Shown: positions 3,776 through 18,918 of the stretch, in pieces
How the letters are laid out: each line of letters begins with the position of its first letter
How positions within the stretch are numbered: the stretch's first letter is position 1
NCBI GenBank assembly: GCA_963976765.1
Contig: CAXBME010000004.1
Location: 371,805-391,804, forward strand
DNA length: 20,000 nucleotides
Direction: 5' to 3'
Source of the DNA: an uncultured Planctomycetaceae bacterium
Lineage (GTDB): Bacteria > Planctomycetota > Planctomycetia > Planctomycetales > Planctomycetaceae
Made by a program: the position numbers and the translations under genes
The notes under the pieces: model-generated
Database searches by the model: none
What the model was told of the DNA's origin: nothing
Seen by the model: the letters and a program-made list of their open reading frames with translations, nothing else

Positions 3776-3879
3776 AAGTGCCGGCATCGCGAGCGTCCCG
3801 TTCGAAAATTGCCAGGACGGCGCAAAGCGTTTTCCAGCATCCCCACTACCCACCGACTCAACCTCGGAGTGACGACCAG

Positions 3880-5160
3880 ATGAATCGCATGCTTCCCGCC
3901 GTTTCGACAATTGCCAGCATCATTGCCGGGACTCTGTTCTGCAGCTCAGTATCAGCCGACAACTGGCCGGGCTGGCGCGGCCCCACGTCAAACGGCGTCG
4001 CCGCGACGGGTGAGTACCCAACAACCTGGAGTGCCACGAAGAACGTTGCCTGGAAGATGAAGCTCGACGGACGAGGCGCGTCGACACCGATCGTCTGGGA
4101 AAACAACATCATCCTGACGATGGGACGCGGCGGAAAAAATGTGCTCGTCAGCTTTGACCGCTCGGGCAAGCAGAACTGGATGCTGGAAGTCGGCACCGAA
4201 AAAGCCGGCAAACACAAAAAAGCCAGCGGCAGCAATCCTTCCTGCGTGACCGATGGCAAGCTGGTCTTTGCCTACTTCAAGAGTGGTGATCTGGTGGCCG
4301 CTGACCTGAACGGCAACCTGAAGTGGCACCACAATGTCCAGGAAATGTTTGGCGAAGACACGTTGTGGTGGGATCTCGGCACGTCTCCGATTCTGACCAG
4401 CGCTCACGTCGTCATCACGGTCATGCAGTCGGGGCCGTCGTACCTTGCCGCCTTTGATAAGGAGTCCGGCAAGTCTGCCTGGAAAGTCGACCGAAATCTG
4501 AACGCCCCTGAAGAAGCTGCTCAGGCTTACTCGACACCGGTCGTCGAAATGGTCGACGGTAAGGAACGTATCTACGTTCTGGGAGCCGATCACGCGACCG
4601 GCCACGACGCGGCAACCGGCAAAGAACTCTGGCGAGTCGGCGGTCTGAACCCGACTCAGCACCAGTACTTTCGGTCGATCGCCGGTCCCGTTCTTGCAGG
4701 AAACATGCTGATCGCTCCTTATGCACGTGGTGGCTCAGTCACGGGAATTCGGCTCGGTGGAAGTGGTGATGTCACGAAAAGTCACGTTGCCTGGACAGCT
4801 CTGGAGGTGGGCTCGGACGTTCCAACCCCAACCTTCCTCGGCGATCGTGTCTTCATCTGCCGCGATAGCGGAGGCAGCAAAGGCAACCTCGCCATACTCG
4901 ATCTGAAGACCGGCAAAATTGTTGACGAACTGCTGTTGGAAAAAAATCGAAACGGCTTCAGTTCATCGCCGACGCTCGCCGGCCATCATCTTTATGTCAC
5001 TCGCGAAGACGGCGTGACTTTCGTCGTTGACGTCTCCGGAAAGTCGAAGGTCGTCGCCACGAACTCGCTGAACGACGAGTTCACCGTCGCGACTCCAGTC
5101 CTTGTCGACGGAAAAATCCTGCTGCGAACGTACGAGCACCTCTACTGCCTTGGTAAATGA
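3880..5160 (+). CDS. Exported PQQ-like beta-propeller repeat protein (BamB-like/PQQ_2 family common in Planctomycetes)
   Basis: Signal peptide (MNRMLPAVSTIASIIAGTLFCSSVSA) followed by DNWPGWRGP, then repeated blade motifs (STPIV, AFDKESGKSAW, GHDAATGKELW, SSPTL, ATPVLVDGKILLRT..HLYCLG). ATG 3880 has GGAG upstream. Confidence 0.9.
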   Translation: MNRMLPAVSTIASIIAGTLFCSSVSADNWPGWRGPTSNGVAATGEYPTTWSATKNVAWKMKLDGRGASTPIVWENNIILTMGRGGKNVLVSFDRSGKQNWMLEVGTEKAGKHKKASGSNPSCVTDGKLVFAYFKSGDLVAADLNGNLKWHHNVQEMFGEDTLWWDLGTSPILTSAHVVITVMQSGPSYLAAFDKESGKSAWKVDRNLNAPEEAAQAYSTPVVEMVDGKERIYVLGADHATGHDAATGKELWRVGGLNPTQHQYFRSIAGPVLAGNMLIAPYARGGSVTGIRLGGSGDVTKSHVAWTALEVGSDVPTPTFLGDRVFICRDSGGSKGNLAILDLKTGKIVDELLLEKNRNGFSSSPTLAGHHLYVTREDGVTFVVDVSGKSKVVATNSLNDEFTVATPVLVDGKILLRTYEHLYCLGK

Positions 5161-6281
5161 GCACGGAAACCTTCCTCATGGCAAAGTACCGAGTCGCGAT
5201 TATCGGCAGCACGAATCGAGGAAACTACGGTCATGGTCTCGCCGGGCCGTGGCAGCATCTTGATTCGTGCGAGGTGGTTGCCGTAGCAGACGAGCACGAA
5301 GGCGGGCGTGCGGCAGCCATCAAGCGGTCCGGAGCGAGATCCGGCTATGCCGACTACCGTGAGATGCTCGCCAAAGAGCAGCCGAACATTGTGGCGATCT
5401 GCCAGCGCTGGATCGATCGGCACCACGAAATGGCGATGGCGTGTGCCGAGCACGGTTGCCACATCTACATGGAGAAGCCGTTCTGCCCGACTCTCAACCA
5501 ATGCGACGAGATTATTCAGGCGTGCGAGATGCGGCATCTCAAGATGGCCATCGCTCATAACACAAGACATTCGCCTGTCGTACGAGTCGTTAAAGGTTTG
5601 ATCCGGGACGGCAGAATTGGTGACGTGCTGGAAGTCCGGATTCGAGGGAAAGAAGATGCTAGACGTGGCGGCGGTGAAGATCTCTGGGTGCTGGGAACTC
5701 ACATGCTCGACCTGGCCGGGATGCTGTTTGGCGAGGTCGAATCCTGCTTCGCAACTGTTCGTGAAAGCGGTGAACGAGTTTCAAAAAAGCACGTGAAGCC
5801 CGGCAATGAAGGCATCGGCCCTCTGGCTGGCGACCACATTCAGGCGACGTACCAGTTCAGGCGAGGCATCAACGGCTTCTTTGCCTCGAAACGCGGATCC
5901 GGTGGCAGCCCGACACGATTCGGCATGACGATTGTCGGTTCCAAAGGCCAGATCAAACTGCAATCCGGTTACGGGCGCACGGCGTACATTCTGGAAGATT
6001 CAAGCTGGTCGCCCGGGCAGACCGGATCGAAATGGCAGCCCGTCACGTCCAACGGGGTCGGCAAGCCAGAGACAATCGCTGACGACAGTCACGATGGCGG
6101 CAACACTCAGGCGGCGATCGACCTGCTTTCAGCGATCGAAAACGATCGGCAACCGCTCAGCAGCATGTACGACGCGCGGGCGGCTACCGAGATGATCGTT
6201 TCCATCTTCGAATCTCACCGCCTCGGGATGCCGGTCACGCTGCCGCTGGAAACTCGCGAGAACCCGTTGACTTTGTTGTGA
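5157..6281 (+). CDS. Gfo/Idh/MocA-family NAD(P)-dependent oxidoreductase
   Basis: N-terminal Rossmann strand (YRVAIIG), YADYREML, HIYMEKP and GTHMLD. ATGA overlap with the upstream stop; alternative ATG at 5178. Confidence 0.92.
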   Translation: MSTETFLMAKYRVAIIGSTNRGNYGHGLAGPWQHLDSCEVVAVADEHEGGRAAAIKRSGARSGYADYREMLAKEQPNIVAICQRWIDRHHEMAMACAEHGCHIYMEKPFCPTLNQCDEIIQACEMRHLKMAIAHNTRHSPVVRVVKGLIRDGRIGDVLEVRIRGKEDARRGGGEDLWVLGTHMLDLAGMLFGEVESCFATVRESGERVSKKHVKPGNEGIGPLAGDHIQATYQFRRGINGFFASKRGSGGSPTRFGMTIVGSKGQIKLQSGYGRTAYILEDSSWSPGQTGSKWQPVTSNGVGKPETIADDSHDGGNTQAAIDLLSAIENDRQPLSSMYDARAATEMIVSIFESHRLGMPVTLPLETRENPLTLL

Positions 6282-6621: not shown

Positions 6622-8628
6622 ATGGTGACAAGGATGTCCCGCTGCCGCCTGATCTGTTTACTGAGCGCGGTTGTCGTTGCCGCCTCTGTCTTCATGCGCG
6701 ATGCCGGACACGATCTGGCGTCGTCGGTCGTAGCTGCCCCGCACACCATCAGCAATGTCGAACATCCGTACGACGCGGACTGGCCCGACGTTCGGCTGAT
6801 TCTCGCTCAAAAATGCAACGCGTGTCATCGCCCCGGCACTGAGCAATCTGACCTGACGAGCTGGGAAGCGATCGTCGATAAGCCGCATCCGCACGGCGAA
6901 ACACTCGTCGTTCCCGGCAAGCCCGAATCGTCATTGCTCTGGCAGTACGTCGCCTGGAACGTTTCTGAACGCTCTGACTCTGACGAAGCTGAAGAGCCAC
7001 AGATGCCGCCCGAGAAGTCCGAGTGGCTCACCGCGGGACAGCTCGAAACACTCAATCGATGGATTCGAAATGGCGGATTGAAGTATCGCCTGCCGGACAC
7101 CTGTGACACGTGGCCGTTGACTGAGCTGGATTTCCCATCCGCCAGAGAGTGCGCGACCTGCCACCCGAAACAGTACACCGAGTGGTCACGTTCGATGCAT
7201 GCGTACGCGCAACACAGTCCGGTGTTCGAGGCGTTCAACCTGACTCTGCAGGAACGAACGAGCGGCACTCTCGGAACATTCTGCACCCGTTGCCACACGC
7301 CACTCGGAACGGCAATCGGAGAAAACGGGCAACGTCGAAACGTGAACCGTTCCAGACTGTCGATGGAAGGCGTGACCTGCGTAGTCTGCCATCGAGTCAA
7401 CAAGTCGTACTACAAATCGAACACCCGTCGACACATCGTTCCCGGCAGACTTTCAGAAGGCTGCATGTATGGACCTTTTGAGGATGCCGTTTCCGTCGAC
7501 GAAAACTCGCACGGCGCCTCAAAGTCTGTTTCAATCCGGTCCAGCGCGTTCTGCGGAGCCTGCCATGACGTTTACAGCCCTGAAGGAATTCGCCTGGAAG
7601 AAGCCTTCAGCGAGTGGCAGAACAGCCCCGCTGCAAAGAACCAGCAGACCTGCCAGCATTGCCACATGGGACCTGTCCAGGGCAAGCCGTTTCTTGAGTG
7701 CGAACGGCCGATTGGACGAGCCGCGACCGTGCCGGGCATCGACCCGGAAAAAATTCCGTTGCGGCCACTCTCCGACCACACCTTCGCCGGCCCGGATTAT
7801 TCGCTGCTGCCGGATACCGAGTTTCCGCACAAGCTCGACTGGATGTACGAAACTGATTACCGCCGAACCGACCGGCTGACTCTGCATCAGAAAACGACAC
7901 TCGATCAACTGCGTCGAACAAACCGCAAACAGCTTCGAATCGCTCAGGAAAAGCGATACGAACTCCTGCAGAACGCGGCCGAAATTTTCGTTGCAGCTCC
8001 AGAATCTGCAGCCTGCGGCGATCGGATTTCCGTGCAGGTCGACGTGCGAAGTCTCGTTGCCGGGCACAACTTCCCGACGGGTTTTACGGAGGAGCGCCAG
8101 CTTTGGGTTTCCATCGAAGTGTGTGACGAGTATGGCAGGTCTGTATTTGCAACGGGCGATTTCGACAGCAACGGCGACCTTCGAGACGAACACAGTCACG
8201 CAGTCCTGGGCGGACATGCTCACTGGGATCGGAACCTGCTGAACTTTCAAAGCAAGTTCGTCGGTCTGGCAACTCGCGGAACCGAGCGGCCGCTGATTCT
8301 GTCAGTCAATCGACAACTTGCGCCACTGAATATCTTCCGTCCGGCAAATGCTCCTGCAGCCGCGTTCGGTCGTCCTTCCACCTTCCGAATTTCGAAAGGC
8401 AGCCTGTCGCCGCTGAGCACCGTCTCGAAAAAGTACACCATCACACTTCCCGAACAGACCGGAAGCTACTGCCTGCGAGTCCGTCTGAACTATCGGCATC
8501 TGCCTCCACATCTGATGGACGAAATCGGAACGCCGCACCTGAAGCCTCTGCTTGAGACAGTAATTATCGATCAGCACGAAGGTGTCATTCGAGTTGGGCA
8601 ACGCACGGGAGGACTCTTCCTGCGATGA
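6622..8628 (+). CDS. Exported hexaheme cytochrome c: N-terminal planctomycete-type monoheme domain, five-heme c554-like core and C-terminal GHxxPTG beta-rich domain
   Basis: Six CxxCH motifs: CNACH 6814, CATCH 7150, CTRCH 7282, CVVCH 7378, CGACH 7552, CQHCH 7651. Hydrophobic N-terminus (LICLLSAVVVAASVF). Start is uncertain (GTG 6592, ATG 6622 or ATG 6634). Confidence 0.9.
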   Translation: MVTRMSRCRLICLLSAVVVAASVFMRDAGHDLASSVVAAPHTISNVEHPYDADWPDVRLILAQKCNACHRPGTEQSDLTSWEAIVDKPHPHGETLVVPGKPESSLLWQYVAWNVSERSDSDEAEEPQMPPEKSEWLTAGQLETLNRWIRNGGLKYRLPDTCDTWPLTELDFPSARECATCHPKQYTEWSRSMHAYAQHSPVFEAFNLTLQERTSGTLGTFCTRCHTPLGTAIGENGQRRNVNRSRLSMEGVTCVVCHRVNKSYYKSNTRRHIVPGRLSEGCMYGPFEDAVSVDENSHGASKSVSIRSSAFCGACHDVYSPEGIRLEEAFSEWQNSPAAKNQQTCQHCHMGPVQGKPFLECERPIGRAATVPGIDPEKIPLRPLSDHTFAGPDYSLLPDTEFPHKLDWMYETDYRRTDRLTLHQKTTLDQLRRTNRKQLRIAQEKRYELLQNAAEIFVAAPESAACGDRISVQVDVRSLVAGHNFPTGFTEERQLWVSIEVCDEYGRSVFATGDFDSNGDLRDEHSHAVLGGHAHWDRNLLNFQSKFVGLATRGTERPLILSVNRQLAPLNIFRPANAPAAAFGRPSTFRISKGSLSPLSTVSKKYTITLPEQTGSYCLRVRLNYRHLPPHLMDEIGTPHLKPLLETVIIDQHEGVIRVGQRTGGLFLR

Positions 8629-10478
8629 CCAGGTCCGTCCATCCAACAGAACGACTTTTCCAAACCATTCGTGAGTGTCACGTTGCGCGACATGCGTGCG
8701 TCCTGTTTGTCAGTCTGGCGATTGTGGCCGGCACGTCTGCGGCTGCCGACAACGGTTTCCTGCGCGGCGTCAACCAACTGCTGGAATTACCCCTGCCGGT
8801 AACTGCAAATCATCAACCCAGATCGACGATTCGAATCATTCCCGCACCGACTCCGAGTGCGGTCAACCAATCATCACACCGCACGGGCAAAGTTGTTTCC
8901 AACAGTTCCATGTCCGTGACACTGCCCGTGGCTGCTCAAGGAAACAGGCCGAAACAGGATCTGCGCAGTTCCGACATTCGTGATGCGAATCAACCGGCGG
9001 CAGCTGAAACTTCCCGAGCGGAGCAGAGGCAGTTCCAGCCTGCCGCTTTCGTCGCAGTAGCTGCCGAAGTGCCCGCGATAGCCAGCTTCTCGATCGAAAC
9101 TGCTGAGCCGCTGCCGCCACTGGCGGAAGAGCTTCAACGCTTCGGCGGTTCGTCGCTTTACGAAGCCGAGGGCGAACACGCTGGCTCCCCCTTCGTTCAT
9201 CACGGCGACGATCACGTCAGGAATCTCCGGCTGCCGGAGTCGTGGGAGAAGCCACTGCCGCCGGTAACGGCATACCAGGAGTTCGTTGGCGCCGACCCGA
9301 TCGGCTCGTGGGATGGTTTGAACTGGTTTGGCGACGACGGATTTCAGTGGGAACCGCGACTCGTCGCGCATGGCTCGTATGAAATGTTCGGACTGTTTCT
9401 TGAGCAGGGTGGCACTCGTCAGGACGCCATCGGCCATCAACTGATCGTGGATGTCGATCTGCAACTAACCGGAACCGAACGTGCTCACGTCCAGTTTCGC
9501 CCACTCGGTCGCCGCAACACCGGCGGCTCGTTCTTTCGTCTCGATGACCCAACCGGGTTCGACGACAACTCCACCGGCATTCCCGACCGCTGGTGGATCG
9601 AGGGCGAATTCTACAGCCTGTTCGGCGGACTTATCGACGACGAGTTTACGCCACTGGATTACCACATCACCGTCGGGAAAGTTCCATACGCCGTTCACAA
9701 CTCGCTGCTGATCAACGACGAAGTCACCGGCGTCATCGTCAACAAGAATACGCTGCTGATTCCGCCGCTCAGCAACCTGAATATTCAGGGCTTTTATTTT
9801 TTCGACGATGTCGACACGGCAACGCCACACTCGACCGAACTGGTTGGCATGCACGCCTCTGCCGACTGGCGAAACGCGTTTATCGAAGGAACGGTCGCTT
9901 ACGTCAGCCATTCAGACGACGCGAGTTTTGACTCGCGCTACGCCGCTGTCAGCGCGACAAAATTTTTCGGGCCGGTAACGCTGGCTGGCCGAGCACTCTT
10001 CAAAGACGGAGACGAAGCCGGAACAGGTGACGGAGCTTTGTTCGTGGTCGAGAGCAACCTGACGCGACTGGCTCCCCACGAAATCAGCTGCGTGACCGGC
10101 ATCGAACACGCCGTCTTCTACGGAAACTTCTTCAAAGCAACCAGCGGTTGGAGCCCGATCAGCGGAGCCAACTTCAACCGGCTGAGAAGTTCCTTCGCGG
10201 TCGATCCGCTGATCCGAATCGGTCAGGGCTTGAACCCATCCGACACGACCGGTGCCTCACTCGGCGTCCAGCTTTTTCGCGACCACGAGGATGAGTCAAT
10301 CACTCCCGAAGTCGCCTGGGAGCAACCACAGGGCGACTCCGTCTGGGGCGTGGGTCTGCGTTGGCAACGAAAACTCGGTCCTCAGATTTTCCTGGACGCG
10401 TCGGGGCTGATCTCCTGGTCAGACAACCGCCAACTCGAACGCGAAGGCATCTTCATTTCGACGTTTGTCCTCTTCTGA
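8625..10478 (+). CDS. Hypothetical protein, predicted outer-membrane beta-barrel with a long N-terminal extension
   Basis: Signal-peptide-like segment (CVLFVSLAIVAGTSAAA). About 18 alternating amphipathic segments in the C-terminal ~375 aa (e.g. LIVDVDLQL, FIEGTVAYV, WGVGLRWQRK, IFLDASGLISW). Ends in Phe (GIFISTFVLF). ATGA overlap with the cytochrome gene. Confidence 0.75.
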   Translation: MTRSVHPTERLFQTIRECHVARHACVLFVSLAIVAGTSAAADNGFLRGVNQLLELPLPVTANHQPRSTIRIIPAPTPSAVNQSSHRTGKVVSNSSMSVTLPVAAQGNRPKQDLRSSDIRDANQPAAAETSRAEQRQFQPAAFVAVAAEVPAIASFSIETAEPLPPLAEELQRFGGSSLYEAEGEHAGSPFVHHGDDHVRNLRLPESWEKPLPPVTAYQEFVGADPIGSWDGLNWFGDDGFQWEPRLVAHGSYEMFGLFLEQGGTRQDAIGHQLIVDVDLQLTGTERAHVQFRPLGRRNTGGSFFRLDDPTGFDDNSTGIPDRWWIEGEFYSLFGGLIDDEFTPLDYHITVGKVPYAVHNSLLINDEVTGVIVNKNTLLIPPLSNLNIQGFYFFDDVDTATPHSTELVGMHASADWRNAFIEGTVAYVSHSDDASFDSRYAAVSATKFFGPVTLAGRALFKDGDEAGTGDGALFVVESNLTRLAPHEISCVTGIEHAVFYGNFFKATSGWSPISGANFNRLRSSFAVDPLIRIGQGLNPSDTTGASLGVQLFRDHEDESITPEVAWEQPQGDSVWGVGLRWQRKLGPQIFLDASGLISWSDNRQLEREGIFISTFVLF

Positions 10479-11761: not shown

Positions 11762-11932
11762 GGCATGCTCCGAATCTGACGTAAAAAAACATCATGGCCG
11801 ACACCGAGCATCATCTTTGGCTCGGCATCTCGCAACTGTTCGTGACCAAAGCGTGACAGCCGCGACTGATGAAAGAATCACGCAACGGCGTGCACAACGC
11901 GAACTGGTCTTGTGACGATTGGCGATCGATTC

Positions 11933-11979
11933 TAAATTTGGCCACCCAAATTTGGACGGACAAATTTGCCAGATCAAAT
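11933..11979. promoter_or_regulatory. Array of (C/T)AAATTTG palindromic boxes with 14-bp period; putative operator of the BlaI-like repressor
   Basis: AAATTTG at 11934, 11948 and 11962, plus a degenerate CAAAT with AAAT at 11976. All are exactly 14 bp apart and end about 28 nt before the repressor ATG. Confidence 0.6.
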
Positions 11980-12006
11980 CGACGGCCACTCAGACAAGGA
12001 GGCGAC

Positions 12007-12396
12007 ATGGCCGGAACGCAGACAAAGGAACTGACTGAGCGAGAGCTCGCGGTGATGAGAACTTTCTGGGACGACGGCGAGGCGACTGCAGACGAGGCTC
12101 GCCAGCGGCTGGCCGAAACCGGCGTTGAACTCGCCTATGTCACGGTGGCAAACGTTGTCCGAGGACTGGAAGACAAGGGCTTCCTGAAGCAGCTCAATAA
12201 ATCCCGCCCGTTTCAGTATCGCGCCGCGCGGTCGTTTGACGATGTTTCCAAACGGCTGGTCGGCGACCTGGTCGAACGACTGTTTGACGGCTCACGGCAG
12301 AAACTGCTGGTTCAGGTTCTGAACAAGCGACGGCTGTCAAAAACCGAACGCGAGTTCCTCAAGCAGATCCTGGTGGATCAGGGAGAGGACGTATGA
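12007..12396 (+). CDS. BlaI/MecI/CopY-family transcriptional repressor
   Basis: LTERELAVMRTFW, helix LAYVTVANVVRGLEDKGFL and LVERLFDGS; strong RBS AAGGAGG before ATG 12007; 129 aa. Confidence 0.93.
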   Translation: MAGTQTKELTERELAVMRTFWDDGEATADEARQRLAETGVELAYVTVANVVRGLEDKGFLKQLNKSRPFQYRAARSFDDVSKRLVGDLVERLFDGSRQKLLVQVLNKRRLSKTEREFLKQILVDQGEDV

Positions 12397-14462
12397 CGTC
12401 GCTCGATCTATTTCTGAGCCTTGCCCGAATCACCACTGTCGGATTTCTGGCCATCGTTGCCGGGTACTGTTTGCTGCGTCGCCGGCCGGAGATTGTTCTC
12501 GGGCTTTCGTTGGCCGGGCTGCTTTCTGGTTGCGTGCTGCTGGCCGCTTCCGGAAGCGAATGGCCAACTCTCTGGGAATCGTCAATCTCAGTGACTGATC
12601 CGGTTCTGCCTTCGGATTCTGGTGGCCAGAATTCTCAGCTCACGAAGAGACCTTTAAGCAACTTCGGGATGTCCCTCACGGATATCGGGCGGTTTGTTCG
12701 AAAGCTCGACGTGGCTGATTCAGGAACTGCCTCGACGAAGAGACTGAACCTGCTCACCGTCTTCGGAGTCCTGGTCGCCCTGGCCGTCGCTCGAATTCTT
12801 GCTGGGCTTATCTCCACGGCCTGCTTTCACCAGCGAAGCAAGGTTGTCACCAGCGATCGCCTGCAGAAACTGTTGTCTGTGTTTGCCGCAAACGTAGAAG
12901 GCGGTTACGCACTGGAATTTCGCGTCTCGCGGCAGATTCACGCTCCATGCGTGACGGCAATCAGTCAGCGTTGCATATATCTGCCAGAGAATTGGAATGA
13001 CTTTTCCGAGGACGAGCTTGAGGCCGCGATCACGCACGAGCTTGGCCACCTGAACCGTCAAGATGCTCGGTGGCGTCTGCTGGCTCAACTCGCCACCGCG
13101 TTCCAGGTGTTTCACCCATTGTCGCACGGCCTGCTCCGCCAACTGGTGCTTGCTCAGGAACTGTCCGCCGACCAGTGGGCCGCTGACGTAATCGGCCAAT
13201 CCCGATTTGTCCGTGGAATTTCTCAACTGGCTTTACGACTTGACCATGCTGCCCTCCCGCGACGGTCCCAGGGAATCGGGATGTCGCACTCTTCTTCATT
13301 TCTGATCAGGAGGATCAAGATGCTTCGCAATGGAATGCCCGCCCACCGAAGAAAGACTCACTCGCTCACCAGAAAGTTTGCCGCACTGTCAATTTTTGCG
13401 ATCGCTTTCGTGGCCTCGTCATGGACTCTTTCGGCTGAGGAGCCAGTTCGAGTTGCGGCTCGAATCATTGATCCTTTGACAGAAAAACAACCAGAAATCG
13501 ACACAGATCTCTGGAACATCCTGCCAGGCAGAACTGGCTACTGGTCCCTGAATTTCCAGGCAGCTCTCAAGCACCAACTTATCGGCGAGTGGCTCAATCA
13601 GGCTGACGCAGTGTTCATCACGCCAGGCTGGATGATGATTGCGAAGGATGAAGCCAGGGGGCAGCGACGGGAGCTTGGTCTGTCGCTCCGGAACCTGGCA
13701 ACCTTGTCTGGCACGGTGATGATGGAAACAACACGGATCGAAGACGACGACAGCGAAAAGACTTTTCGCACCAACGTGACGACAAGCGAGATGATCCTTC
13801 GGATGCGAAAGGATGTCGATTGGTCATCGGTCGCAGCCGCTCTGCCGGAAGAGCGGCTCGACGCAGCAATTCGGGATCTGGCCGGACCCCAGATATCCGA
13901 AGATCAAGCCGAACAACTCACTCAGCTCGACATGTTTGCTGATTTCTTTGCAAAACAAACGGACCCTCGACGATTTATCTTCAAACAGGATCCGGAAAAA
14001 CCAGAGGCAACCTCACCGGTGATCAAATCGCTGTGGAATGAGTACAGCGGCGAGATCGCTACCATGATCGTGAAACTCCCGTTGTTCAGCGGCCAGACCG
14101 AATCGGAAATGGCCACGCTGATGCAGAACCTTCACGAGACTGGTGAGTACGAGGTTGTCGGAGTTGACCCGTCAGTCGAGCCTGAAAAGATCAGAATGAC
14201 CATTGGGCTGACGGTTCGAGAAGGCAAATCAACGGAACAACTTCTGGCGGCGATGTCTGCCGTCATTGATGCGAGCATCAAAGAATTCGATGCGGACCAT
14301 GCCAACGACGAGCCGCTGGATGCCTCAGAAGAAGCAATCTTTCAATTTCTTAAAACCGTCAAGCCAGAAATTCGAAAGTCGTCCAACCCAGCAACGCCCA
14401 GCGCCGTGATGCTTGAAGGGGATGTCATGCCAACGGCCCTGTGGCTGGCAATCGGCGGCTGA
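12393..14462 (+). CDS. M56-family (BlaR1/MecR1-like) membrane metallopeptidase with an uncharacterised C-terminal extracytoplasmic domain
   Basis: N-terminal TM helices, zinc motif THELGH (13035-13049), FHPL, ELSADQWA, LIRRIKML, then a TM/signal segment. ATGA overlap with the BlaI-like gene. Confidence 0.92.
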   Translation: MTSLDLFLSLARITTVGFLAIVAGYCLLRRRPEIVLGLSLAGLLSGCVLLAASGSEWPTLWESSISVTDPVLPSDSGGQNSQLTKRPLSNFGMSLTDIGRFVRKLDVADSGTASTKRLNLLTVFGVLVALAVARILAGLISTACFHQRSKVVTSDRLQKLLSVFAANVEGGYALEFRVSRQIHAPCVTAISQRCIYLPENWNDFSEDELEAAITHELGHLNRQDARWRLLAQLATAFQVFHPLSHGLLRQLVLAQELSADQWAADVIGQSRFVRGISQLALRLDHAALPRRSQGIGMSHSSSFLIRRIKMLRNGMPAHRRKTHSLTRKFAALSIFAIAFVASSWTLSAEEPVRVAARIIDPLTEKQPEIDTDLWNILPGRTGYWSLNFQAALKHQLIGEWLNQADAVFITPGWMMIAKDEARGQRRELGLSLRNLATLSGTVMMETTRIEDDDSEKTFRTNVTTSEMILRMRKDVDWSSVAAALPEERLDAAIRDLAGPQISEDQAEQLTQLDMFADFFAKQTDPRRFIFKQDPEKPEATSPVIKSLWNEYSGEIATMIVKLPLFSGQTESEMATLMQNLHETGEYEVVGVDPSVEPEKIRMTIGLTVREGKSTEQLLAAMSAVIDASIKEFDADHANDEPLDASEEAIFQFLKTVKPEIRKSSNPATPSAVMLEGDVMPTALWLAIGG

Positions 14463-16004: not shown

Positions 16005-17501
16005 TTAGGTTGAAGACTGGGTGGGAATGTTAGCTTCCCGGCGGCGTTGAATCAGCGGTACGGCCAGCAGAACGGCGCTGATGACAAGAAACACTGCCGA
16101 CATCGGTCGAGTCACGAGCGGCAAATAGCTTCCGCCCGAAGCCATCAGTCCCGCGCACAGATTGCTCTCGGCGACCGGTCCGAGCACGAAGCCAATGACA
16201 AACGGTGCCAGCGGGATTCGCAGCTTCTCCATCCCGAAACCAACCAACCCAAAGAGCAGCATCACCCAGACGTCAAACATGCGGTTGCTCAGAGCGTACG
16301 AGCCAACAACGCAGAATGTCAGAATGACGGGGATCAGGAATGCTCGTGGAACATCGGTCAGGCGGGCGATCTGCCGCACAGCCAGTACCAGAAAGCCGAA
16401 CATGAAAAAGTTCGCAATAAAGTACGTTCCCATGATCGTGTAGATCAAAGACGGGCTTTGCTTGAACAGCAGCGGCCCAGGCTGCAATCCGTGCAGAACG
16501 AGTGCTCCCAGCAGAATTGCGTCGATCACGCTGCCGGGAATTCCCATCGCGACGAGCGGAATCAGTGCTCCGCCGACCGTTGCATTGTTCGCAGATTCTG
16601 AAGCAATGATGCCTTCTTCGCTGCCGTGTCCGAATTTCTCGGGAGTCTCTGAGAAAGTACGGGCGGCTGAGTAGGCGGCAACCGATCCGATGTTGGCACC
16701 AATGCCGGGCAGGATGCCGATCCATGTTCCGATGATCGACGACCGAAGCATATTCACCCAGTGAAGCTTCCAGTCTGCCAGTGTGGGAAACAGCTTCTGT
16801 TTTGCCAGCGGAACCTGCTCGATCGAACCATCGATTCTCAGCACGTCGCTGATCACCTGGCTCAACGCGAACAGCCCGATCAGTACTGGCAGCAGCTTGA
16901 GTCCGCCGTTCAATTCTTCGAACCCCAGAGTCATCCGCAATTCGCCAGTCGCCTCAGCGACGCCAGGCATCGCGCAAAGAATTCCGAGCAAACCGGAAAA
17001 CAGCGCGGCACTCAGCGACTTCCCGCCGACTGAGGCAATCAGGACCAGGGCCATCATGACGAGTGAGAAAAATTCGAACGGGCCGAATTTCGTTGACAGT
17101 TCGGCCATCGGTTCTGACAGCGCGATCAGGAACAACCACGACACGAGGCCGCCAGCGAACGAGGCCATGATGCTCAGCGTCAGCGCGCGACCGGGCTGCC
17201 CTCCCCTGGCCATCGGGTAGCCGTCCAGCGTCGTCATGACCGAAGCCGGCGTGCCAGGCATCCGGAGCAACGTCGCGGTAATCAGTCCGCCACTGATCGA
17301 GCCGACATACATACTGACGAGCAGGATCATCGCATTTCCCGCGTCCATCGAGTACGTCAGTGGCAGCGTCAGCGCGATCAGCATCGCCCCGGTGAGACCG
17401 GGAATCGCCCCGACGAGAATTCCAAGGCTCGTGCCGATGGCGATCAGAATCAGCCCGGTCGGAGCGATCAGAAGTTGTATGGCTTCTTCAGTAGATGACA
17501 C
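16005..17501 (-). CDS. tctA: Tripartite tricarboxylate transporter large permease TctA
   Basis: GAIPGL, PGTPAS..TTLDGYPMA, GILPGIG, ESANNA, GIPGS and GLQPGP; polytopic membrane protein of 498 aa. Confidence 0.93.
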   Translation of the reverse strand: MSSTEEAIQLLIAPTGLILIAIGTSLGILVGAIPGLTGAMLIALTLPLTYSMDAGNAMILLVSMYVGSISGGLITATLLRMPGTPASVMTTLDGYPMARGGQPGRALTLSIMASFAGGLVSWLFLIALSEPMAELSTKFGPFEFFSLVMMALVLIASVGGKSLSAALFSGLLGILCAMPGVAEATGELRMTLGFEELNGGLKLLPVLIGLFALSQVISDVLRIDGSIEQVPLAKQKLFPTLADWKLHWVNMLRSSIIGTWIGILPGIGANIGSVAAYSAARTFSETPEKFGHGSEEGIIASESANNATVGGALIPLVAMGIPGSVIDAILLGALVLHGLQPGPLLFKQSPSLIYTIMGTYFIANFFMFGFLVLAVRQIARLTDVPRAFLIPVILTFCVVGSYALSNRMFDVWVMLLFGLVGFGMEKLRIPLAPFVIGFVLGPVAESNLCAGLMASGGSYLPLVTRPMSAVFLVISAVLLAVPLIQRRREANIPTQSST

Positions 17502-17592
17502 GCGACAGTTTCATGGTTTAGTTACGAGGAAAGTGACGCAGGGTGCAGCTTGAGCACCACAGCTTCAGATGAAGTGATGGTAGAGACGTCTC

Positions 17593-18918
17593 CTACGGCA
17601 GGTCCGTGACGACGACCTTCGTCAGGATGTACTGCACGCCGAACGCGACGAGCAACGACGTTTCGACCAGCAGTAAAGCGTGAGTTCGTTTCTGCTGACT
17701 GAGCAGGAAACCGCCACACGGTATAAAGACGATCGTTGCCCACACAAACGGAACTCCATACTGCATGGCCACGACGTAGATCGCCGTGGCGGTAAGCAGC
17801 CCGATCGTTCGCAAAGTCGCAGGCGACGTTTCAGCAGCAGCATTGCTGGCGGAATTCGCCACAAATTCGCGACGACGCTCGACGATCATAGCCGCAACGC
17901 AAGCAACAAGTGCCCAGCCAACGCCCATTGGAATATCAGGAACTTCCGGAGTCTTCTGCTGACCAACGGTCTTTGCATCCGCGACCTGCTGATTGATGTA
18001 GTCGATAAATTCCTGTCCCTGCAGAAAGTTTGGCTCCATCTGCAGCTCGGCCAACCGCTTACGAACGTGCTCGGTCTCCATCGCTTGTTTGAGAACGTTG
18101 GCGATGTAGTCGACGCATTCGCGTGGCGTTCCCTTTGGAAACCACCAGTAATGACGGTTCGAGTTGACGACGTCGACACCCTGTTCGCGAGCCGTCGGAA
18201 CTTCCGGCAACGCCGGATTCCTTTTCTCCCCCAGATACGCAATCGCCCGCAGACCTTGAGATTTGAAGCTGACATACTCCGAGACAGAAAACGAAGACAC
18301 TTCGATGTGGTCTCCCACGAGTTTATGAGCCCGATCTGCCCCGTCTCCCGATTGAGTAAACCGAAACTTTGCTCCTGGAAATGCCTGCTCCAGTTGAAGC
18401 GAGGCGAAGTGGGTAGGGGCTCCAAGATTGACCCCGTTGATCACCGAATCCGGCTTCGATCTGCACTCATCGAGCAACTCCGTGAGCGTCTCGAACCGGG
18501 ATGAATCCTTAACGACGACCACCATGCCGATCTCGCCCGTCGAGGCCACCGGTTCGAATGCTTCCGGGCCATACTTCACTTTGCCCGAATACTTCGCCGT
18601 GATAATTGCATCGTGCAGCAACAGCAGCGTGTAGCCGTCCGGCTTTGCATCCCGCACGTACCGACTGCCAATCGTCGCGCTGCCGCCTGGTCGGTTGATG
18701 ATTACAAACGGCTGAGGCAGCAGCCCGGCTTCATCGATCCCCAGCTTGATAATCCGACCAAAAGTATCACTGCCCCCTCCCGGTCCAAACGGAACGACAA
18801 GCTTGATCGGTTTCGCCGGGTAGTTCCCTCCAGCGCTTCCAGAGTCGCCAGCCAGAGATGCCACCATCAAAGCAACGATCGCGCCGCATGCAGCAAGATG
18901 TCCGAGAATTCGATTCAT
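17593..18918 (-). CDS. Tripartite tricarboxylate transporter substrate-binding protein TctC fused to a TctB-like membrane domain
   Basis: TctC/Bug motifs YPAKPIKLVVPFGPGGGSD, NRPGGS, PDGYTL, LPEVPTAREQG and PKGTP. The last ~115 aa contain about four hydrophobic helices with TctB-like features (Y...F.WAT..F and a terminal ..LP). Confidence 0.85.
   Translation of the reverse strand: MNRILGHLAACGAIVALMVASLAGDSGSAGGNYPAKPIKLVVPFGPGGGSDTFGRIIKLGIDEAGLLPQPFVIINRPGGSATIGSRYVRDAKPDGYTLLLLHDAIITAKYSGKVKYGPEAFEPVASTGEIGMVVVVKDSSRFETLTELLDECRSKPDSVINGVNLGAPTHFASLQLEQAFPGAKFRFTQSGDGADRAHKLVGDHIEVSSFSVSEYVSFKSQGLRAIAYLGEKRNPALPEVPTAREQGVDVVNSNRHYWWFPKGTPRECVDYIANVLKQAMETEHVRKRLAELQMEPNFLQGQEFIDYINQQVADAKTVGQQKTPEVPDIPMGVGWALVACVAAMIVERRREFVANSASNAAAETSPATLRTIGLLTATAIYVVAMQYGVPFVWATIVFIPCGGFLLSQQKRTHALLLVETSLLVAFGVQYILTKVVVTDLP

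What the first reader, a model, noticed from the sequence alone, without database searches (positions are those of the whole stretch)
6622..10478. Non-canonical porin-multiheme cytochrome pair: candidate outer-membrane electron conduit in a Planctomycete
Seen: an exported cytochrome with six CxxCH motifs is translationally coupled (ATGA at 8625-8628) to a 617-aa protein with a signal peptide, about 18 amphipathic strands by eye and a terminal Phe. The pair forms a stand-alone two-gene unit. Established: adjacent multiheme cytochrome and beta-barrel genes are the signature of MtrAB, PioAB, MtoAB and Geobacter Pcc conduits; MtrA-type partners are decaheme and MtrB is a larger barrel. Inference: this pair fits none of them and may be an uncharacterised trans-outer-membrane electron-transfer module, or a surface-displayed redox enzyme with its own translocator.
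Basis: partly seen in the sequence, partly recalled or inferred. Interest (0 to 1): 0.85.

Follow-up and report, generated by a model that had tools for sequence, protein, structure and literature searches.

The report
Six-heme cytochrome plus dedicated membrane channel
A tightly conserved two-gene unit in some Planctomycetes encodes a cytochrome with six heme-binding motifs, predicted to be exported, and a protein predicted to fold as an 18-strand outer-membrane barrel. It is a divergent form of the PtdAB/PCC4 cytochrome-porin pair, which is in print but untested, and the barrel likely acts as a solute channel for the cytochrome and not as an Mtr-type sleeve.

Summary
ORF A (6622-8628) has six CxxCH motifs. 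It overlaps ORF B (8625-10478, 617 aa, ends in Phe) by ATGA. B models as an 18-strand barrel closest to MOMP, OprD/Occ and AlgE.

The two genes are adjacent in 77 of 77 testable public loci. In 401 sampled Planctomycetota genomes they occur in exactly the same 8. No other neighbour is conserved.

The pair is not without precedent. A is a PSCyt1-type monoheme domain fused to a pentaheme cap and an Ig-like stem of the T. tepidum c552 / ExtKL (MccSep) / PtdA fold. B is a profile-level homolog (hhalign E 5e-41) of the barrels that follow PtdA-like pentahemes in complete ptdABCDEFG (= PCC4) clusters. That system was described only from sequence, in 2017 and 2024, and has never been tested.

This copy is a variant: six hemes, no ptdC-G partners, a subfamily-specific invariant Cys281, and an extra conserved N-terminal motif in the barrel. 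It lacks the catalytic Cys and Sec of MccSep.

Best reading (0.45): a periplasmic redox protein fed by its own solute channel. A true trans-membrane conduit remains possible (0.3). Binding could not be tested because the complex predictor was unavailable.

The parts
6622..8628 (+). Gene A: six-CxxCH c-type cytochrome, 668 aa from ATG 6622. Alternative starts are GTG 6592 and ATG 6634.
   Evidence: Homologs are 53-89% identical in 77 loci.
6622..6714 (+). Signal-peptide-like N-terminus of A (residues 1-31), with no lipobox.
   Evidence: Sequence. Modelled as a single helix, residues 6-31. Export is inferred; no predictor was run.
6784..7071 (+). PSCyt1-type class-I monoheme domain (about residues 55-150). 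Heme motif C65xxCH69, invariant Met128-Pro129.
   Evidence: Pfam PF07635 scores 24.4 bits, above the gathering score of 22, when the domain is scanned alone. Invariants from 42 sequences. This domain is missing from PtdA-type relatives.
7129..7971 (+). Pentaheme cap (about residues 170-450). CxxCH at C177, C221, C253, C311 and C344; subfamily-invariant Cys281.
   Evidence: Profile search of solved structures: 5ze8 E 1.3e-10, also MccA and MccSep. Foldseek top hit 5ze8, E 1.1e-9. NCBIfam ExtKL 50.7 bits, cut-off 250.
7972..8625 (+). C-terminal Ig-like beta-sandwich stem (about residues 451-668) with invariant GHNFPTGF and an SGD.D.NGDLRD.HS loop.
   Evidence: Strands modelled at residues 453-659. 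The GH motif aligns to HAMPTGA of 5ze8 and GHSIPDGU of MccSep.
8625..8628 (+). ATGA overlap of the stop of A and the start of B.
   Evidence: By my count of the table, the same 4-nt overlap (to the first start codon) occurs in 14 of the 70 homologous loci examined.
8625..10478 (+). Gene B: outer-membrane beta-barrel protein, 617 aa.
8625..8747 (+). Signal-peptide-like N-terminus of B (residues 1-41).
   Evidence: Sequence. Helices at residues 7-38 in the model.
8748..9074 (+). Low-complexity Pro/Ser/Ala/Gln linker of B (residues 42-150), variable in length among homologs.
   Evidence: pLDDT below 50 for residues 39-146. Homologs carry linkers up to about 550 aa, none with CxxCH.
9102..9356 (+). 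Subfamily-specific conserved N-terminal segment of B (residues 160-244): EPLPPLEEEL..HGGS.LYEPEGD ... LRLPE.W..P.P.T.F..FLGADPI.
   Evidence: Invariant columns in 30 sequences. Residues before 208 fall outside the hhalign match to PtdB-type barrels.
9357..10478 (+). 18-strand beta-barrel (residues 245-617) with C-terminal Phe, plus the stop codon.
   Evidence: AlphaFold2 secondary structure. VIA-align Z 26.6 to MOMP 5ldt, 24-26 to OprD/Occ, 24.3 to AlgE. Foldseek E about 1e-10 to the same set.

Best explanation
The two genes encode a cytochrome with six CxxCH motifs and a protein predicted to form an 18-strand outer-membrane barrel. The barrel likely works as a dedicated solute channel that would bring a small redox-active substrate to the periplasmic cytochrome, and the cytochrome would exchange electrons with the respiratory chain through its fused monoheme domain.

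Shown:
- The domain make-up of A: a PSCyt1-type monoheme domain fused to a c552/PtdA-type pentaheme cap and an Ig-like stem.
- Homology of both proteins to the PtdA and PtdB (PCC4) proteins.
- Strict adjacency and an identical phyletic pattern.
- The 18-strand barrel fold (as a prediction).
- Absence of the MccSep catalytic residues.

Inferred:
- Export of A to the periplasm and of B to the outer membrane.
- Docking of the Ig-like stem, whose GH loop abuts the odd heme in MccSep, under the channel mouth.
- One non-bis-His heme (PHC heme 2, C221xxCH225) as the reactive site.
- The fused His/Met-type heme as the link to soluble c-type cytochromes or oxidases.

The substrate and the direction of electron flow are unknown. 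I favour oxidation of an incoming reductant in these aerobes, but weakly.
For: 1. Barrel fold. B is predicted as 18 strands. Its nearest solved structures are all monomeric or substrate-specific solute channels: MOMP Z 26.6, OpdQ 26.0, OccAB 25, AlgE 24.3, chitoporin 23 (Foldseek).

2. Cytochrome fold. A has the c552/ExtKL fold. 5ze8 is the top hit by profile (E 1.3e-10) and by structure (E 1.1e-9, TM 0.61 on the target). The one biochemically studied relative, MccSep (ExtKL), is described by its authors as a periplasmic protein and shown to be a tetrameric polysulfide reductase. Its cluster encodes the porin-like ExtI, and the authors leave outer-membrane transit of the substrate open.

3. 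Heme ligands. In an alignment of four A-type and nine PtdA-type proteins, only H193, H386 and H482 are invariant His outside the CxxCH motifs. H297 or an 'IH' in the PtdA insertion may add a fourth (my reading of the alignment). That gives four distal His for five hemes, as in MccSep, where heme 2 is the reactive one.

4. Electron link. A class-I monoheme is recruited twice. It is fused as PSCyt1 in the A type. It is a separate 122-aa PF00034 cytochrome gene directly upstream of the pentaheme-barrel pair in 2 of 2 sister-lineage loci that have upstream DNA (L103, L104).

5. Obligate partnership.
- A lies directly upstream of B on the same strand in 77 of 80 public loci. The 3 misses have under 1 kb of upstream DNA.
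- A type and B type occur in the same 8 of 401 sampled genomes, always side by side.
- By my comparison of the coordinates listed, 31 of 34 PtdB-type barrels have a pentaheme hit just upstream on the same strand.

6. No fused forms. None of 266 barrel-family proteins examined contains a CxxCH motif.
Against: - No interface was predicted or observed. The complex predictor was unavailable.
- Translational coupling and strict pairing suit a stoichiometric complex as well as an enzyme with its porin.
- A lacks the MccSep catalytic Cys and Sec (V323/R324 and F488 at the aligned positions). It may be a pure electron carrier, which would favour a conduit.
- An outer-membrane protein with 18 transmembrane domains (ExtB) is part of a putative Geobacter conduit. 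Strand number alone therefore does not exclude a conduit.
- Full ptd/PCC4 clusters carry tetra- and decaheme proteins typical of electron-export chains.
- The heme-ligand inference rests on alignment only. The heme region of the A model is poor (pLDDT below 50 for residues 211-303), and no coordinates could be inspected.
- No substrate is indicated by any neighbour.
Confidence: 0.45

Rival explanations
1. True trans-outer-membrane electron conduit. Part of A (the Ig-like stem with its hairpin, or an edge of the heme cap) would sit inside the lumen of B. Electrons would then pass between the periplasmic cytochrome pool and an extracellular donor or acceptor (Fe, Mn, humics) without the substrate entering the cell, as proposed for PCC4 and Ptd.
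For: - Strict adjacency, ATGA coupling and an identical phyletic pattern.
- Homology to PtdAB/PCC4, which both source papers interpret as a porin-cytochrome complex.
- Full clusters add an NAD(P)H/FAD/2Fe-2S reductase, a membrane protein, and tetra- and decahemes.
- A lacks the MccSep catalytic residues.
- The pentaheme fold is related to archaeal cytochrome nanowires according to PMC11976967 (passages read).
- ExtB, a Geobacter outer-membrane protein with 18 transmembrane domains, is part of a putative conduit.
- The conserved extra N-terminal motif of B appears together with the extra domain of A.
Against: - The 18-strand barrel is nearest to solute channels. MtrB is not among the 50 matches shown.
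- The cap of this fold is a wide 'mushroom' head in MccSep.
- No extracellular or lipoprotein cytochrome is encoded.
- None of 266 barrels is fused to a heme motif.
- MccSep, long listed as part of a putative conduit, was described by its authors as a periplasmic protein and shown to be an enzyme.
Confidence: 0.3
2. B would be a translocator or anchor that places A, or part of it, on the cell surface. This is the first reader's second option: a surface-displayed redox enzyme with its own exporter.
For: - AlgE, one of the structural neighbours, is an export channel.
- B carries a long periplasmic linker and a conserved N-terminal motif that could engage a passenger.
Against: - The best-scoring structural matches are solute channels, Z 23-27. 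Protein-translocating barrels appear lower in the list: FhaC Z 14.2, ushers Z 13.7-14.7, BamA-type Z about 12-14, an autotransporter unit Z 10.9.
- No POTRA domain was found by Pfam.
- A folded protein carrying six covalently bound hemes could not pass an 18-strand pore. This point is an inference.
- MccSep was described by its authors as periplasmic, and T. tepidum c552 was purified as a soluble protein (recalled).
Confidence: 0.07
3. A would be an MccSep-type polysulfide or selenite reductase, and B the counterpart of ExtI.
For: - The best NCBIfam hit of A is ExtKL.
- The profile also hits MccSep chains 9wt8 and 9wt9.
- The cap-and-stem architecture is the same.
Against: - The ExtKL score is 50.7 bits against a cut-off of 250.
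- The Sec/Cys position after GHxxPxG is an invariant Phe (F488), and the heme-ligating Cys239 position aligns to V323/R324.
- B has no NCBIfam hit and models with 18 strands, whereas ExtI is reported with 21 transmembrane domains.
Confidence: 0.05

Closest known systems
PtdA-PtdB of the ptdABCDEFG cluster (bioRxiv 10.1101/2023.11.21.568154), the same cluster as PCC4 of He et al. 2017 (PMC5566968)
   Same: [quoted passage not shown]
- A is 30-36% identical to PtdA-type proteins over residues about 180-645 (E 1e-68 to 1e-91).
- B matches the PtdB-type profile with hhalign probability 100%, E 5e-41, over 379 columns.
- Both papers list Planctomycetes among the hosts.
- The function is untested in both.
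   Different: - A has a sixth heme in a fused PSCyt1 domain where PtdA-type proteins have an acidic or Pro-rich linker.
- No ptdC-G genes lie nearby in any of 81 loci. In the window's own genome tblastn finds no PtdF or PtdG homolog, a PtdC-like gene on another contig, and only weak or partial hits for PtdD and PtdE.
- Cys281 is invariant in the subfamily.
- B has an extra conserved N-terminal motif.
- The barrels are only 22-28% identical.
Thermochromatium tepidum pentaheme cytochrome c552 (PDB 5ze8)
   Same: It is the best sequence-profile match and the best fold match. The heme cap, the Ig-like stem and the GH..PTG loop are shared.
   Different: It has five hemes and 435 residues, with no monoheme domain. 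Its function is unknown (as cited). Its genomic partner was not examined here.
ExtKL (MccSep) with ExtI of the Geobacter sulfurreducens extHIJKL cluster
   Same: The cytochrome has the same pentaheme fold and is encoded with a porin-like outer-membrane protein. It is a precedent in which a presumed conduit component was described by its authors as a periplasmic protein and shown to be an enzyme.
   Different: - A has no Sec or Cys after the GH loop and no Cys239-type ligand.
- ExtI is reported with 21 transmembrane domains, and B has no NCBIfam hit.
- There are no rhodanese (ExtH) or ExtJ genes here.
MtrAB / MtoAB / PioAB
   Same: A periplasmic multiheme cytochrome gene lies next to an outer-membrane barrel gene.
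   Different: - A has six hemes of a different fold. The decaheme DmsE-family model scores 19 bits against a cut-off of 192.
- B has 18 strands, not the 26 of MtrB (recalled).
- B has no MtrB_PioB Pfam hit.
Cyc2 fused cytochrome-porin
   Same: A small barrel is associated with a class-I-like heme. Features of Cyc2 are recalled.
   Different: The cytochrome and barrel are separate polypeptides here. None of 266 barrel-family proteins has a CxxCH motif.
OprD/Occ, AlgE and Campylobacter MOMP 18-strand channels
   Same: They are the best structural neighbours of B (Z 24-27, rmsd about 3 A over 304-325 residues).
   Different: Sequence identity is 6-13%. There is no Pfam hit apart from Porin_4 at E 0.067. 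None of them is known to be paired with a cytochrome.

Membership tests
PtdAB / PCC4 cytochrome-porin module | [quoted passage not shown] | tested here: met
   (5ze8 is the top hit). 30-36% identity to the pentahemes of complete ptd clusters L100 and L101 and of other PtdAB-type pairs.
PtdAB / PCC4 cytochrome-porin module | Barrel gene directly downstream that is homologous to PtdB | tested here: met
   hhalign of the B-family alignment A1 against the PtdB-type alignment A5: probability 100%, E 5e-41. Adjacency.
PtdAB / PCC4 cytochrome-porin module | Accompanying ptdC-G genes: FAD/NAD/2Fe-2S reductase, tetraheme, cNMP/4Fe-4S protein, membrane protein, decaheme | tested here: not met
   None is next to the pair in 81 loci. 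In the window's own genome only a PtdC-like gene on another contig and weak or partial hits for PtdD and PtdE were found, and none for PtdF or PtdG. Stand-alone PtdAB-type pairs also exist in other Planctomycetes (L094, L097, L098).
PtdAB / PCC4 cytochrome-porin module | Exactly five heme motifs in the A protein | tested here: not met
   Six CxxCH motifs, because of the fused PSCyt1 domain.
MccSep / ExtKL selenoprotein family (NF040886) | Sec or Cys directly after the GHxxPxG loop | tested here: not met
   Invariant Phe488 in 42 of 42 sequences.
MccSep / ExtKL selenoprotein family (NF040886) | Heme-2 distal Cys (C239) after the fourth heme motif | tested here: not met
   This position aligns to V323/R324, in a low-confidence HMMER alignment. 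No Cys is invariant in that loop.
MccSep / ExtKL selenoprotein family (NF040886) | NCBIfam score above the cut-off | tested here: not met
   50.7 bits against 250.
MtrAB / PioAB / MtoAB | Decaheme MtrA/DmsE-type cytochrome | tested here: not met
   TIGR03508 scores 19.1 bits against 192.2. A has six hemes.
MtrAB / PioAB / MtoAB | Large MtrB/PioB-type barrel | tested here: inconclusive
   No MtrB_PioB Pfam hit. 18 strands are modelled. MtrB is not among the 50 structural matches shown, which does not exclude a distant relationship.
Geobacter Pcc (OmaB-OmbB-OmcB) | Outer-surface lipoprotein multiheme cytochrome in the cluster | tested here: not met
   There is no third cytochrome gene and no lipobox in A.
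Cyc2 | Cytochrome and porin fused in one polypeptide | tested here: not met
   Two ORFs are present. None of 266 barrel-family proteins has a CxxCH motif. The apparent fusion in L047 contains a stop codon.
18-strand solute channels (OprD/Occ, AlgE, MOMP) | 18-strand barrel fold | tested here: met
   This is fold only; sequence-family membership was not shown (Pfam Porin_4 E 0.067).

The most novel reading that the evidence does not exclude
This would be the smallest self-contained porin-cytochrome system known. Two genes would let aerobic Planctomycetes take electrons from an external reductant such as Fe(II), Mn(II) or a reduced sulfur or humic compound at or within an 18-strand outer-membrane pore. 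The electrons would pass down five low-potential hemes into a fused high-potential class-I heme, and from there straight to the terminal oxidases. No inner-membrane or quinone-linked partner would be needed.
Probability: 0.15. Interest if true: 0.7.

Novelty: new variant of a known kind. Interest (0 to 1): 0.35.

Why it matters
The PtdAB/PCC4 pair is widespread in aquatic bacteria, and ptdAB is highly transcribed in a marine oxygen-deficient zone. No one knows what it does.

The Planctomycete hexaheme variant is the simplest form seen here: two genes, no accessory redox proteins, and a built-in class-I heme that points to the likely electron partner. It occurs in cultured strains: Blastopirellula marina DSM 3645, Bremerella cremea and Thalassoglobus neptunius (record titles).

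That makes it a practical entry point for deciding whether this family is a conduit or an enzyme with a channel. The same question was reopened for Geobacter ExtKL by the MccSep work.

Tried and rejected
- Complex prediction (A residues 165-668 with B residues 150-617) was never accepted. The queue was full, and the calls between were not sent on. No test of binding exists in this report.
- The look-up of sequencing runs listed no RNA holder, so expression and co-transcription were not examined.
- The promoter and terminator scan gave no promoter-like site on the + strand upstream of A. Terminator-like sites numbered 10 against 5.3 +/- 2.7 in shuffles, with none after B. This was uninformative.
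- The search for related loci on metagenome contigs with alignments A4 and A5 failed for lack of a conserved stretch. A single protein, P0163, was used instead.
- The apparent A-B fusion in L047 was an artefact of my ORF script. The frame contains a stop codon.
- The in-frame TGA in the A homolog of L008 is not at a Cys or Sec position. I treated it as an error or pseudogene, and it was left out of alignment A3.
- Pfam and NCBIfam gave no family for B or for 12 of its 13 distant relatives scanned. The 13th, P0196, runs on into an FHA/FAD-binding gene across a frameshift.
- Chen et al. 2019 on c552 is not held. Its heme ligation could not be read.
- Heme-ligand geometry could not be measured, because model coordinates are not exposed.
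- Greedy ORF picking missed the barrel in L095 and L099. Adjacency there rests on the coordinates.
- Looking up earlier findings by place and by sequence gave nothing.
- The supplements of the ptd preprint (Tables S7, S8) are closed, and those of He et al. 2017 were not opened. They may list this hexaheme subfamily.

Full report
**What is there**

ORF A runs from ATG 6622 to 8628 on the + strand (GTG 6592 and ATG 6634 are alternative starts). ORF B runs from 8625 to 10478. Residues of A are numbered from ATG 6622.

- A carries six CxxCH motifs.
- B is 617 aa and ends in ...TFVLF.
- The sequence at the junction is cgATGAcc, with a GGGAGGA 12-18 nt upstream.
- Both N-termini look like Sec signal peptides without a lipobox. 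This is read from the sequence; no predictor was available.
- The flanking genes are unrelated: a BamB-like PQQ propeller and a GFO/IDH/MocA oxidoreductase upstream (ending at 6281), and a convergent GDSL lipase downstream.

**The barrel**

B has no Pfam or NCBIfam family; the only hit is Porin_4 at E 0.067. It has more than 200 homologs, which cover the C-terminal 72-75% of the protein.

AlphaFold2 on an 89-row alignment gave a mean pLDDT of 77.9. It modelled:
- 18 long strands between residues 245 and 616, mostly at pLDDT above 90;
- a disordered linker at residues 39-146;
- a conserved segment of medium confidence at residues 160-244.

Foldseek and VIA-align both place the barrel with 18-strand solute channels:
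- Campylobacter MOMP, Z 26.6;
- OprD/Occ proteins, Z 24-26;
- AlgE, Z 24.3;
- chitoporin, Z 23.

106 of 120 family members end in Phe.

**The cytochrome**

Pfam finds a PSCyt1 monoheme domain. It scores 24.4 bits, above the gathering score of 22, when scanned alone, and has an invariant Met128-Pro129. Generic multiheme models match residues about 174-350.

- The best NCBIfam hit is ExtKL, at 50.7 bits against a cut-off of 250.
- A profile of 42 homologs hits PDB 5ze8, the T. tepidum pentaheme c552, at E 1.3e-10 in three stretches. It hits MccA and the MccSep chains more weakly.
- The A model has a mean pLDDT of 67, and the heme region is poor. It still finds 5ze8 as the only specific fold match (E 1.1e-9, TM 0.61 on the target).

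A is therefore a class-I monoheme domain fused to the 'pentaheme cytochrome' fold: a heme cap and an Ig-like stem. That family is described for ExtKL, Gsu2801 and c552 in PMC11976967 (passages read). It is described structurally for MccSep in bioRxiv 10.1101/2025.11.18.688581 (abstract and sections 4, 7 and 8 read).

**It is not an MccSep-type enzyme**

In MccSep, heme 2 is ligated by Cys239, and Sec325 follows the GHSIPDG loop. In the HMMER alignment, the invariant GHNFPTGF of A puts Phe488 at the Sec position. The Cys239 position falls on V323/R324.

The A subfamily has its own invariant non-heme Cys281. PtdA-type relatives have a gap at that position.

Across four A-type and nine PtdA-type proteins, only three His outside the heme motifs are invariant (H193, H386, H482). 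H297, or an 'IH' in the PtdA-type insertion, may add a fourth; that is my reading of the alignment. Four distal His for five cap hemes suggests one non-bis-His heme. This is an inference from alignment only.

**Synteny and co-occurrence**

A scan of species-representative genomes returned 80 loci, all Planctomycetota.

- tblastn finds an A homolog directly upstream on the same strand in 77 of them. The three misses have under 1 kb of upstream DNA.
- Six CxxCH motifs are kept in 69 of 70 near-full-length ORFs.
- One locus, L026, has a 774-nt gap with an ORF between the two genes.
- No other gene family is shared. A and B are each found in 76 of 81 loci by greedy ORF picking, and the next family in 11.
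- In a sample of 401 Planctomycetota genomes, the B type (E at most 1e-80) is in 8. The full-length A type is in the same 8, side by side.
- The window's own genome has one copy of each.

**Relation to Ptd / PCC4**

The distant relatives of B (about 23-31% identity) form a family of about 470 aa (alignment A5).

- In the same 401 genomes this family has 34 strong places. By my comparison of the coordinates, 31 of them have a pentaheme hit just upstream on the same strand.
- In eight regions fetched, these pentahemes are 30-36% identical to A over residues about 180-645.
- Two regions, L100 and L101, show this gene order: pentaheme, barrel, reductase-sized ORF, tetraheme, about 560-aa ORF, about 280-aa ORF (not picked by my ORF script in L101), decaheme. 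Pfam names the L100 products as FAD/NAD/2Fe-2S reductase, tetraheme, cNMP/4Fe-4S protein and decaheme.
- That is the ptdABCDEFG cluster of bioRxiv 10.1101/2023.11.21.568154 (section 8 read). It is also the PCC4 cluster of He et al. 2017, PMC5566968 (passages read).
- Profile-profile comparison of the B and PtdB-type families gives probability 100% and E 5e-41 over 379 columns.

PtdA-type proteins have a low-complexity linker where A has its monoheme domain.

A third lineage (P0163; Deltaproteobacteria and Binatia by record names) has a separate 122-aa class-I cytochrome c gene directly upstream of a 520-aa pentaheme and a barrel. This is seen in 2 of 2 loci with upstream DNA. That cytochrome is not detectably homologous to the PSCyt1 domain. 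A class-I heme partner therefore seems to have been recruited twice.

**Mechanism**

I commit, at 0.45, to a periplasmic six-heme redox protein served by its own outer-membrane solute channel. The fused monoheme would be the link to the soluble cytochrome pool.

Reasons for this reading:
- the barrel's fold class;
- the periplasmic assignment and enzymatic nature of the one characterised relative;
- the likely odd heme;
- the twice-recruited class-I heme.

Evidence against it, and for a true conduit (0.3):
- strict pairing and translational coupling;
- loss of the MccSep catalytic residues;
- tetra- and decaheme partners in the full clusters;
- the precedent of ExtB, an 18-transmembrane-domain protein in a putative Geobacter conduit;
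- the absence of any interface test.

Substrate and direction of electron flow are not indicated by any result.

**Novelty**

The kind is already in print, from sequence analysis only. Searches found no experimental work and no description of the hexaheme form. The supplements of the two source papers were not seen.

Earlier notes of this scan reached the same PtdAB assignment in other genomes. One of them gave the PCC4 lead, which I then checked in the paper.

This copy is a new variant: six hemes, a stand-alone pair, its own invariant Cys, and an extra barrel motif.

Noticed in passing
window 3778-6281 (+): A BamB-like PQQ beta-propeller gene (3778-5160) overlaps a GFO/IDH/MocA oxidoreductase gene (5157-6281) by 4 nt. 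This pair stays upstream of A-B only in the closest relatives: L003, L004 and L006.
   Followed up: partly
window 11869-14462 (+): A BlaI-type repressor (Penicillinase_R) and a BlaR1-type M56 peptidase sensor overlap by 4 nt.
   Followed up: no
window 16005-18918 (-): A TctA gene is followed by a 441-aa protein that carries both TctC and TctB Pfam domains. This looks like a fused receptor and small membrane subunit of a tripartite tricarboxylate transporter.
   Followed up: no
G000:C7:14404-19350 (-): A run of three ORFs with 10, 4 and 5 CxxCH motifs (514, 540 and 574 aa) sits beside large membrane-protein-sized ORFs. They match PtdD and PtdE only weakly and are not a ptd cluster.
   Followed up: partly
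G000:C9:202547-205274 (-): A PtdC-like gene (34% identical to the FAD/NAD/2Fe-2S reductase of L100, E 2e-48) lies about 0.9 kb from a 268-aa ORF with seven CxxCH motifs.
   Followed up: no
G000:C49:26346-29327 (+): A 993-aa ORF with five CxxCH motifs and an N-terminal hydrophobic anchor is a weak paralog of the pentaheme cap of A (21% identity, E 1.6e-6). No barrel gene follows it.
   Followed up: partly
L103:3001-7896 and L104:150-2887: The sister lineage has the gene order monoheme class-I cytochrome c, 520-aa pentaheme, 481-aa barrel, TPR protein. A CHASE2 adenylate/guanylate cyclase and a class-II phosphodiesterase-like gene lie upstream in L103.
   Followed up: partly
L096:8447-15974 (-): Two pentaheme-barrel pairs lie in tandem in one Planctomycete genome (G369). 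One has a PtdB-type barrel and the other an intermediate type.
   Followed up: no
L008:3242-5338: The A homolog has an in-frame TGA at codon 121, in the monoheme domain and not at a Cys position. It is probably a sequencing error or a pseudogene.
   Followed up: partly
P0132, P0135, P0122 (B-family proteins): Some B homologs carry low-complexity Pro/Glu/Ala-rich N-terminal extensions of 430-550 aa, and in places His-rich inserts, ahead of the conserved HGGS.LY.PEGD motif.
   Followed up: no
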